A stretch of DNA of 64,000 nt from Escherichia coli. Its GTDB lineage: Bacteria > Pseudomonadota > Gammaproteobacteria > Enterobacterales > Enterobacteriaceae. The DNA lies in NCBI RefSeq assembly GCF_003334765.1, contig NZ_QOWT01000013.1. The stretch is one strand, 5' to 3'. Position 1 is the stretch's first letter. Every line of letters starts with the position of its first letter. Of this stretch, positions 34,057 through 35,084 are shown in pieces. The position numbers and the translations under genes are program-made. The notes beneath the pieces are model-generated. The model made no database searches. It worked only from the letters and a program-made list of their open reading frames with translations, and was not told the origin of the DNA.

Positions 34057-34085
34057 AAACCTCCGCAATGCGGAGGTTTCTTTTT
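34057..34085. terminator. Bidirectional terminator between convergent fabA and rmf
   Basis: AAACCTCCG-CAATG-CGGAGGTTT hairpin followed by CTTTTT, preceded by A-rich tract. Confidence 0.75.
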
Positions 34086-34097
34086 AAAGAGACAGAA

Positions 34098-34265
34098 TCA
34101 GGCCATTACTACCCTGTCCGCCATGGCTTCTCGCCAGCCTCCCAGCCATTGTGACCTTTGATTCAGCGTCTGATAGGGACACATTTCTTTTGAGCGTCCG
34201 GCGATGCCGGCCTGATAACCACGTTGATGTGCCCGTTCCAGGCGATCTCGTTTTTGTCTCTTCAT
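34098..34265 (-). CDS. rmf: Rmf ribosome modulation factor
   Basis: Not called in ORF track (a longer out-of-frame ORF 34084..34281 covers it); hand translation from ATG at 34265 gives MKRQKRD..., 55 aa, stop TGA at 34100-34098. Confidence 0.9.
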   Translation of the reverse strand: MKRQKRDRLERAHQRGYQAGIAGRSKEMCPYQTLNQRSQWLGGWREAMADRVVMA

Positions 34266-34462
34266 GCCTCGTTTCCCTCATACTGGTTTCTGGTGGAAAA
34301 GAAAACAGTGATTACTAAATGTGCAATCACAGTTAAGCAATACCGCGAATCATAACTGCCGTCAATGCGCAAAATTCACGCCACTGTCATATTTGTGAGC
34401 TACACGGGCATGTCGGTTGTACAAAAAATGTGAAGAGGAACAAATTTTTCCGCACGTTAGAG

Positions 34463-34500
34463 ACAAAAAAACCGCCTCAGGCAACATACCGGAGACGGTT
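34463..34500 (-). terminator. Putative Rho-independent terminator after pqiC
   Basis: On minus strand AACCGTCTC-(13-nt loop)-GAGGCGGTT followed by TTTTTTTT. Confidence 0.5.
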
Positions 34501-34520
34501 ATATTTACAAATCTTTATAA

Positions 34521-35084
34521 TTAAGGTAGACGCTTTATCTCTTGTGCAATAGAAGCGGCTTCCTGACTCCAGACACCGGCCAGCACTTTAACCATCTCAT
34601 CGTAACCATCCTGAGTTTGCACTCCTTCCAGACGGAACGGACGTTTGATCAGTTGTCCCTGGTGGTTCAACAGCCACTCACCACTGACAATGACCTTGCC
34701 ATCATAGCGACCGTTAAACTCCGTTACGGTAACATTGAGCGTGTCCTGGGCGCTTCCCAGAGGCTGGGAGACAACCACCCAGCCGGGCAGTTGCGTACTC
34801 AGGTTGGCAACCAGGGTGTTGCGCAACTGTTGATCCAACGGGCTGGCCCACAAGTTGTTGTTGGCAATCACATACTTCACATCACTGGTTTGATAAACCA
34901 CACCATTCCCCGCCAGATAGTCAGGAACAGTGACCTGCTCTACCCATAACAGACGATTGCCCTGGCTGGCGGTACTTTGTGTACCGCTCTGCACCACAGG
35001 TAACTGGTAATAGTTTTTATTAATTTCGCCGGAGCTGCATCCGGCCAGCCACAGTGCTGCAATCGTCACTAGCCACTTTTTCAT
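34521..35084 (-). CDS. pqiC: PqiC (YmbA) lipoprotein of the Pqi MCE system
   Basis: ORF track 34521..35084, 187 aa, lipobox LAGCSS; overlaps pqiB stop by 4 nt. Confidence 0.85.
   Translation of the reverse strand: MKKWLVTIAALWLAGCSSGEINKNYYQLPVVQSGTQSTASQGNRLLWVEQVTVPDYLAGNGVVYQTSDVKYVIANNNLWASPLDQQLRNTLVANLSTQLPGWVVVSQPLGSAQDTLNVTVTEFNGRYDGKVIVSGEWLLNHQGQLIKRPFRLEGVQTQDGYDEMVKVLAGVWSQEAASIAQEIKRLP

What the first reader, a model, noticed from the sequence alone, without database searches (positions are those of the whole stretch)
34084..34281. rmf is hidden in the ORF track by a longer out-of-frame ORF on the same strand
The ORF track lists a 65-aa ORF at 34084..34281 (minus strand) with no recognisable product. 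The real 55-aa ribosome modulation factor is in another frame at 34098..34265 (MKRQKRDRLERAHQRGYQAGIAG...). This is a clear case where longest-ORF calling gives the wrong gene.
Basis: seen in the sequence. Interest (0 to 1): 0.2.

Follow-up and report, generated by a model that had tools for sequence, protein, structure and literature searches.

The report
rmf gene shadowed by spurious ORF
The real gene here is the well-known 55-residue E. coli ribosome modulation factor (rmf); the longer 65-codon reading frame lying over it is an unselected by-product of the rmf sequence, so the finding is correct but ordinary.

Summary
Both ORFs exist exactly as described, on the minus strand: 65 aa at 34084..34281 and 55 aa at 34098..34265.

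**The 55-aa product is Rmf.**
- It matches NCBIfam NF011162 at 92 bits (cut-off 40) and Pfam PF04957 at E 2e-22.
- It is 100% identical to RMF in the E. coli 100S ribosome structure 6H4N.
- RefSeq annotates it at these coordinates, between pqiC and fabA.

**The 65-aa frame is not a gene.**
- It matches no family.
- Its 9 database "homologues" are sporadic mis-calls or frameshift hybrids from Enterobacteriaceae, against 635 clusters for Rmf.
- Across about 70 Enterobacterales species it is cut by stops after 11 to 55 codons in most.
- Its translation diverges exactly as fast as the stop-filled third frame (69% versus 68% identity; Rmf 87%).
- rmf third codon positions vary freely.
- 12% of synonymous recodings of rmf leave this frame open.

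**One correction.** rmf is hidden because it is shorter than the ORF lister's 60-aa default, not because of longest-ORF choice.

**One residual oddity.** The alternative frame's ATG at -16 is conserved in most Enterobacterales. It overlaps the published SD1 in a polyamine-responsive leader structure, and it is lost in four lineages that keep GAGG.

Verdict: already known, low interest.

The parts
34098..34265 (-). rmf coding sequence (55 codons plus TGA): ribosome modulation factor
   Evidence: NCBIfam NF011162 92.1 bits against a cut-off of 40. Pfam PF04957 E 1.9e-22. 55/55 identical to PDB 6h4n_v. RefSeq CDS rmf WP_000828648.1 at the same coordinates. Codon-position entropies 0.33/0.16/0.96 across 71 distinct sequences.
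34084..34281 (-). 65-codon ORF in the -1 frame of rmf: spurious, not under selection
   Evidence: No NCBIfam, Pfam or PDB match. Length from the same ATG varies from 11 to more than 67 codons among species. Its translation diverges like the stop-filled +1 frame, 0.687 versus 0.683. Codon log-odds -0.38 bits per codon against -0.02 for rmf. No RefSeq annotation in 5426 E. coli genomes.
34279..34281 (-). upstream ATG at -16, start of the spurious ORF; its G is the first base of SD1
   Evidence: Present in 67 of 71 distinct Enterobacterales leaders, and also in Serratia and Edwardsiella. Absent in an Erwinia group, Biostraticola, Rouxiella and Plesiomonas, which keep GAGG. No purine-rich Shine-Dalgarno motif precedes it (sequence).
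34275..34279 (-). SD1 (GAGGG), the distal Shine-Dalgarno element of rmf
   Evidence: Sequence. Nearly invariant. Described as SD1, 11 nt upstream of the AUG, in a bulged-out region (PMC7177335).
34267..34270 (-). SD2 (GAGG), 2 nt upstream of the rmf AUG
   Evidence: Sequence. Described as SD2, within double-stranded RNA (PMC7177335).
34295..34303 (-). U-rich strand (UUCUUUUCC) predicted to pair with 34268..34276 (GGAAACGAG, which takes in the last two G of SD1 and the first three bases of SD2)
   Evidence: MFE fold. The consensus fold keeps UUCC/GGGA. Both sides are invariant, so there is no covariation evidence. Agrees with the published U-rich stem that responds to spermidine.
34308..34330 (-). 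conserved 8-bp hairpin at the start of the rmf leader (GUGAUUGC-N7-GUAAUCAC), followed by a U-run
   Evidence: 6 of 8 pairs show compensatory changes, 95% of cells are paired, 0 of 500 shuffles reach the observed values, and slid controls give 35-70%. Also picked up by the terminator-like scan.
34056..34080 (.). bidirectional intrinsic terminator shared by rmf (-) and the convergent fabA (+)
   Evidence: 11-bp stem with 7 G-C pairs and T-runs on both strands. It lies 3 nt past the stop codon of the spurious ORF.

Best explanation
The locus is the ordinary Escherichia coli rmf gene. It encodes the 55-residue basic ribosome modulation factor. In stationary phase this protein binds the 30S subunit near the anti-Shine-Dalgarno region and drives 70S ribosomes into inactive 90S/100S dimers together with HPF.

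The 65-codon ORF that overlaps it in the -1 frame is a non-functional shadow. It happens to be open in E. coli because only about seven codon junctions in rmf can create a stop in that frame, and E. coli's synonymous choices avoid all of them. It starts at an ATG that sits on the conserved ribosome-binding region (AUGAGGG, where GAGGG is SD1). It appears instead of rmf in a simple ORF listing only because rmf is shorter than the 60-aa reporting threshold.

Shown here: identity of the product, selection in the rmf frame only, and lack of conservation of the other frame. Taken from the literature: what Rmf does on the ribosome, and the polyamine-responsive leader structure.
For: Identity of Rmf:
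- NCBIfam equivalog 92 bits and Pfam RMF.
- 100% identity to RMF in 6H4N/6H58.
- RefSeq annotation and pqiC-rmf-fabA synteny.
- 635 homologous clusters across Gammaproteobacteria.

Selection acts on the rmf frame only:
- Entropy is 0.33/0.16/0.96 at codon positions 1/2/3. The most variable position is position 1 of the other frame.

The other frame is not conserved:
- It is truncated at 11, 14, 28, 30, 39, 43, 53 or 55 codons in 39 of 71 distinct sequences.
- Identity to E. coli is 0.687, against 0.683 for the stop-filled +1 frame and 0.866 for Rmf. In no locus does it reach Rmf's identity.
- The chance of an open frame is 0.12.
- Codon usage is worse.
- It has no family match.
- It has only 9 database clusters, including frameshift hybrids.

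Threshold artefact.
Against: - The ATG of the 65-aa frame is conserved in most Enterobacterales. The conserved block of the leader begins exactly at it.
- The frame is open for at least 64 codons in 28 of 71 distinct sequences, more than the 12% expected under E. coli codon usage. These species are related and differ in G+C content, so this is weak.
- No experiment on translation of this frame could be consulted. Start-site ribosome profiling is usually done in exponential phase, when rmf is off.
Confidence: 0.95

Rival explanations
1. The 65-aa ORF is a genuine overlapping (overprinted) gene, translated in the -1 frame of rmf into a functional small protein.
For: - Intact ATG-to-TAA frame in E. 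coli, E. albertii, Salmonella and some Klebsiella, Enterobacter and Kosakonia.
- A few database entries call it as a protein.
- The sequence is invariant in 5425 of 5426 E. coli genomes, but so is rmf itself.
Against: - Stops fall at many different positions in close relatives: Citrobacter at codon 55, several Enterobacter at codon 30, Leclercia at codon 14.
- Its translation diverges at the same rate as the non-coding +1 frame.
- rmf third positions, which are this frame's first positions, are the most variable.
- There is no Shine-Dalgarno motif upstream of its ATG.
- Codon usage is poor.
- It has no family or structure match.
Confidence: 0.02
2. The product is irrelevant, but the conserved upstream AUG at -16 is a functional out-of-frame start. 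Ribosomes that initiate there, perhaps recruited through the U-rich tract rather than an SD, read through and occlude the rmf AUG. This would tune RMF synthesis, like a regulatory overlapping uORF.
For: - The ATG is kept in 67 of 71 distinct leaders and in Serratia and Edwardsiella, while the 4 nt before it vary freely.
- In every species that has it, the frame stays open across the rmf start. The shortest ORF is 11 codons and ends at +17.
- A conserved U-rich tract lies 14-25 nt upstream.
- rmf translation is known to be unusually regulated.
Against: - The ATG is lost in at least four lineages (an Erwinia group, Biostraticola, Rouxiella, Plesiomonas) that retain GAGG and the U-rich tract.
- Its G belongs to SD1, and its U and G are predicted to pair inside the published leader structure. 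Conservation is therefore explained without translation.
- It has no SD of its own.
- The papers read on rmf translation do not invoke it.
- Nothing on rmf was found in the start-site profiling papers that could be searched.
Confidence: 0.06

Closest known systems
Ribosome modulation factor Rmf of E. coli K-12 (b0953; Pfam PF04957, NCBIfam NF011162; PDB 6H4N, 4V8G)
   Same: Identical 55-residue sequence. Same neighbours (pqiC upstream, fabA convergent downstream). Same leader elements SD1 and SD2 as published.
   Different: Nothing. This is the same gene.
Shadow ORFs: spurious open frames overlapping real genes, a classic gene-calling artefact
   Same: Open frame in another phase of a real gene. 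No own ribosome-binding site, no family, no frame-specific conservation. Occasionally deposited as a 'hypothetical protein'; here one Klebsiella entry is even named 'ribosome modulation factor'.
   Different: Here the shadow is longer than the real gene, because rmf is exceptionally short and the shadow starts in the leader and ends just before the terminator.
Polyamine-modulon translation initiation regions (rmf, oppA, rpoE, cpxR; Igarashi laboratory)
   Same: The conserved block that carries the spurious ORF's ATG is the published rmf initiation region: a distal SD1 in a bulged region and SD2 in a U-rich stem.
   Different: Those papers, as far as they could be read here, do not discuss the AUG at -16. 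The 5'-proximal hairpin with covariation lies outside the 43-nt RNA they studied (-41 to -1).

Membership tests
Rmf (PF04957 / NF011162) | Sequence matches the family models above their curated thresholds over the full length | tested here: met
   NF011162 92.1 bits (cut-off 40), residues 4-50 on profile positions 1-47 of 47. PF04957 79.5 bits, residues 1-51 on 1-52 of 53.
Rmf (PF04957 / NF011162) | Small (about 55 aa), strongly basic protein | tested here: met
   55 aa with 9 R + 3 K against 3 E + 2 D, counted from the translation.
Rmf (PF04957 / NF011162) | Binds the 30S subunit and dimerises 70S ribosomes | not testable with these tools
   Inferred from 100% identity to the RMF chain of the solved hibernating 100S ribosome 6H4N/6H58 and of 4V8G.
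Rmf (PF04957 / NF011162) | Purifying selection in this reading frame across species | tested here: met
   Entropy 0.33/0.16/0.96 at codon positions 1/2/3 in 71 distinct sequences. Mean amino-acid identity 0.866 at 0.854 nucleotide identity.
Rmf (PF04957 / NF011162) | Conserved genomic context in Enterobacterales (pqiC - rmf - fabA) | tested here: met
   RefSeq table. Edwardsiella and Rouxiella have PqiC-type ABC_trans_aux upstream and FabA downstream; Serratia has the upstream part.
Overlapping (overprinted) protein-coding gene, for the 65-aa frame | Open frame and length conserved among relatives | tested here: not met
   Length from the -16 ATG is 11, 14, 28, 30, 39, 43, 53, 55, 64-67 or more codons. 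39 of 71 distinct sequences are truncated before the rmf stop.
Overlapping (overprinted) protein-coding gene, for the 65-aa frame | Amino-acid conservation above that of a non-coding frame; suppressed synonymous change in the host gene | tested here: not met
   0.687 against 0.683 for the +1 frame. rmf third positions have mean entropy 0.96, with only 5 of 55 invariant.
Overlapping (overprinted) protein-coding gene, for the 65-aa frame | Own translation signals and evidence of translation | not testable with these tools
   No SD-like purine run precedes 34281 (ACCAGU-AUG). No ribosome-profiling data on rmf were found in the searchable papers.
Regulatory upstream or overlapping ORF, for the -16 AUG | Start codon conserved wherever the regulated gene and leader are conserved | tested here: inconclusive
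   Kept in 67 of 71 distinct leaders plus Serratia and Edwardsiella. Lost in four lineages that keep SD1 and the U-rich tract. The conservation is confounded with SD1 and the leader structure.

The most novel reading that the evidence does not exclude
The conserved AUG 16 nt upstream of the rmf start (34281..34279) is used as an SD-independent, out-of-frame start. Initiation there competes with or masks initiation at the rmf AUG, adding a translational switch to the polyamine- and growth-phase-dependent control of ribosome hibernation. The peptide itself would be irrelevant.
Probability: 0.06. Interest if true: 0.4.

Novelty: already known. Interest (0 to 1): 0.06.

Why it matters
It matters little biologically. 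rmf is a textbook gene and is correctly annotated in all 5426 complete E. coli genomes examined.

The practical lesson is for the scan itself. A 60-aa minimum in an ORF track hides real small genes and shows their shadows instead. Such shadows do leak into public protein databases; one Klebsiella entry for the wrong frame even carries the name 'ribosome modulation factor'. rmf has been missed before: it was unannotated in Y. pestis and first scored as an sRNA (PMC3672283).

Tried and rejected
- **Rfam scan of 33900..34600 at E up to 10.** Nothing came near a gathering score, and the Pseudomonas-type rmf motif was not found.
- **Sigma-70 consensus scan.** No promoter was called. The reported start at -58 (PMC6134199) could not be reconciled with the hairpin.
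- **Within-species test for stops in the alternative frame.** Uninformative, because the 198 nt are at least 99% identical in 5425 of 5426 E. coli genomes.
- **CsrA binding to the GGA-containing leader as the reason for its conservation.** The CsrA paper reports no regulation of the rmf leader fusion, so the effect is transcriptional and indirect.
- **Literature search for translation from the -16 AUG.** Nothing on rmf appeared in the TRAINSPOTTER paper or the Onc112 preprint. No supplements are held for the retapamulin preprint.
- **Papers not held.** Aiso et al. 2005 on rmf mRNA stability and Shimada et al. 2013 on CRP control are not in the library.
- **Excess of open alternative frames as a sign of selection (39% observed against 12% simulated).** Rejected as evidence, because the species are phylogenetically non-independent, their codon usage differs, and the divergence control is flat.

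Full report
**Observation.** On the minus strand the window holds two ATG-initiated ORFs. One is 65 codons at 34084..34281. The other is 55 codons at 34098..34265 and translates to MKRQKRDRLERAHQRGYQAGIAGRSKEMCPYQTLNQRSQWLGGWREAMADRVVMA. The starts are 16 nt apart, so the longer ORF is the -1 frame of the shorter. With the ORF lister's default minimum of 60 aa, only the 65-aa ORF is shown between 34040 and 34520. The immediate reason rmf is "hidden" is the length cut-off, not a choice of the longest of two overlapping ORFs.

**What the 55-aa ORF is.**
- It matches the NCBIfam equivalog for ribosome modulation factor at 92.1 bits against a curated cut-off of 40.
- It matches Pfam RMF (PF04957) at E 1.9e-22 over its whole length.
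- It is 55/55 identical to the RMF chain of the solved E. coli hibernating 100S ribosome (6H4N, 6H58) and of 4V8G.
- The surrounding 661 nt are 100% identical to many E. coli chromosomes and are present in all 5426 complete genomes.
- RefSeq annotates rmf at exactly these coordinates, between pqiC and the convergent fabA.
- A protein search finds 635 clusters of homologues, all carrying PF04957, across Enterobacterales, Alteromonadales and others.

**What the 65-aa ORF is.**
- It has no NCBIfam, Pfam or PDB match even at E = 10.
- The same large protein search returns only 9 clusters. By their sequences, four or five are isolated calls of the same frame: an E. coli "hypothetical protein", a Klebsiella entry mislabelled "ribosome modulation factor", and two short metagenome contigs.
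- Three are hybrids that start as Rmf and switch to this frame, which means frameshifts or sequencing errors.

**Comparative test.** I collected 80 rmf loci from one genome per species and four more distant ones: Serratia, Edwardsiella, Rouxiella and Plesiomonas.
- In 71 distinct sequences the entropy at rmf codon positions 1, 2 and 3 is 0.33, 0.16 and 0.96. The freely varying position is therefore rmf's third, which is the first position of the other frame. That is the opposite of what a coding frame shows.
- From the shared ATG, the other frame ends after 11, 14, 28, 30, 39, 43, 53 or 55 codons in 39 of the 71 sequences. It reaches 64 codons or more in 28.
- Length differs even within Enterobacter.
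- The conceptual translation of this frame is on average 68.7% identical to that of E. coli. The +1 frame, which carries 1-4 stops and is certainly non-coding, scores 68.3%, and Rmf scores 86.6%. In no locus does the alternative frame reach Rmf's identity.
- Codon usage is also worse: -0.38 bits per codon against -0.02.

**Is the open frame more than chance?** It is not.
- Recoding Rmf synonymously with the window's own codon usage leaves this frame open from the -16 ATG through to the same stop in 12% of 20,000 trials.
- By inspection of the sequence, only about seven codon junctions can make a stop in that frame. These are junctions where a codon that can end in T is followed by one that starts with AA, AG or GA.
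- The window contains 149 ORFs of 60-100 aa, of which 120 lie over a longer ORF in another frame or strand.

**The one non-trivial feature.**
- The ATG that opens the spurious ORF is itself conserved. The block ATGAGGGAAACGAGGC-ATG-AAGAGACA (-16 to +11) is almost invariant, and conservation begins exactly at that ATG. The preceding linker varies in both sequence and length.
- This block is the published rmf translation initiation region. It has a distal SD1 (GAGGG, whose first G is the G of the upstream ATG) in a bulged region, and SD2 (GAGG, 2 nt before the AUG) in a U-rich stem. Spermidine modulates this structure (PMC7177335; PMC4191411).
- My fold reproduces that pairing: UUCUUUUCC at 34303..34295 with GGAAACGAG at 34276..34268. 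Both strands are invariant, so covariation cannot test it.
- The upstream ATG is lost in an Erwinia group, Biostraticola, Rouxiella and Plesiomonas, all of which keep GAGG.
- The simplest reading is that the ATG is conserved as part of the SD1 and leader structure.
- I cannot exclude that it is also used as an out-of-frame start that occludes the rmf AUG. I give this about 6%. I found no data on rmf in the start-site profiling papers I could search.

**Other elements of the gene.**
- An 8-bp hairpin at 34330..34308, followed by a U-run, is strongly supported by covariation in 63 distinct leaders. Six of 8 pairs show compensatory changes, 95% of cells are paired, no shuffle of 500 reaches the observed values, and slid controls give 35-70%.
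- G-U pairs on the sense strand argue for RNA pairing rather than a DNA palindrome.
- The reported transcription start at -58 (PMC6134199) corresponds to window position 34323. That would remove the 5' arm of the hairpin, and this discrepancy is unresolved.
- rmf mRNA is known to be unusually stable, with a half-life of about 24 min (PMC8778775). A 5'-terminal hairpin would fit that, but this is inference.
- An 11-bp G+C-rich bidirectional terminator at 34056..34080 serves both rmf and fabA.
- No Rfam family matches the region.
- CsrA control of rmf is reported to be transcriptional and indirect, so it does not explain the leader conservation.

**How it works.** This part comes from the literature, not from tests here. 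Rmf is made on entry to stationary phase, under ppGpp and cAMP-CRP control, from a stable mRNA. It binds the 30S subunit at the anti-SD region and converts 70S ribosomes to 90S dimers, which HPF matures to 100S (structures).

**Verdict.** The gene is rmf, and the 65-aa ORF is a shadow. This is already known and of low interest. The useful points are methodological. A 60-aa threshold hides real small genes and shows their shadows. Shadows reach public databases. rmf has been missed before, in Y. pestis (PMC3672283).

Noticed in passing
window 34308..34330 (-): The leader hairpin GUGAUUGC-N7-GUAAUCAC, followed by UGUUUUCUUUU, has clear covariation across Enterobacterales: 6 of 8 pairs are compensatory and 0 of 500 shuffles reach the observed values. 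The published transcription start (-58, window 34323) would fall inside its 5' arm. Either the start is a few bases further upstream, or the hairpin forms in a longer transcript.
   Followed up: partly
window 34263..34281 (-) and loci L002-L085: The leader block ATGAGGGAAACGAGGCATGAAGAGACA is almost invariant from exactly the upstream ATG to codon 4 of rmf, including the third positions of Lys2 and Arg3. The ATG at -16 is lost only in an Erwinia group, Biostraticola, Rouxiella and Plesiomonas.
   Followed up: partly
window 33312..34028 (+): The ORF lister gives fabA as 238 aa from a GTG at 33312. The RefSeq fabA is 172 aa, 33510..34028, starting MVDKRESY. This is the mirror artefact, an over-extension to the first start after a stop.
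   Followed up: yes
protein P0004 (Klebsiella pneumoniae, 65 aa); P0001 (E. coli MS 57-2): Public records hold the wrong-frame product. The Klebsiella entry is even named 'ribosome modulation factor', although its sequence is the -1 frame translation (MRETRHEETKTRSPG...).
   Followed up: yes
proteins P0005, P0006, P0008: These database proteins begin as Rmf and switch to the -1 frame part-way. They come from frameshifted rmf alleles or assembly errors, and two of them still score as PF04957.
   Followed up: partly
window 34056..34080: A perfect 11-bp G+C-rich stem with T-runs on both strands acts as a shared bidirectional terminator for the convergent rmf and fabA. The spurious ORF's stop codon lies 3 nt before it.
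   Followed up: no
window 34084..34281 compared with 33900..34560: Within E. coli the 198 nt of rmf plus its ribosome-binding site are at least 99% identical in 5425 of 5426 genomes. The 661-nt region that includes the flanks falls to 95-99% in 1874 genomes, so the gene is far less variable than its intergenic surroundings.
   Followed up: no
loci L061, L070, L072, L075-L081 (Erwinia, Pantoea, Izhakiella): In Erwiniaceae the variable linker of the leader carries a second copy of the conserved CCACCAGA motif (CCACCAGATTCCACCAGAC), an apparent short duplication between the U-rich tract and SD1.
   Followed up: no
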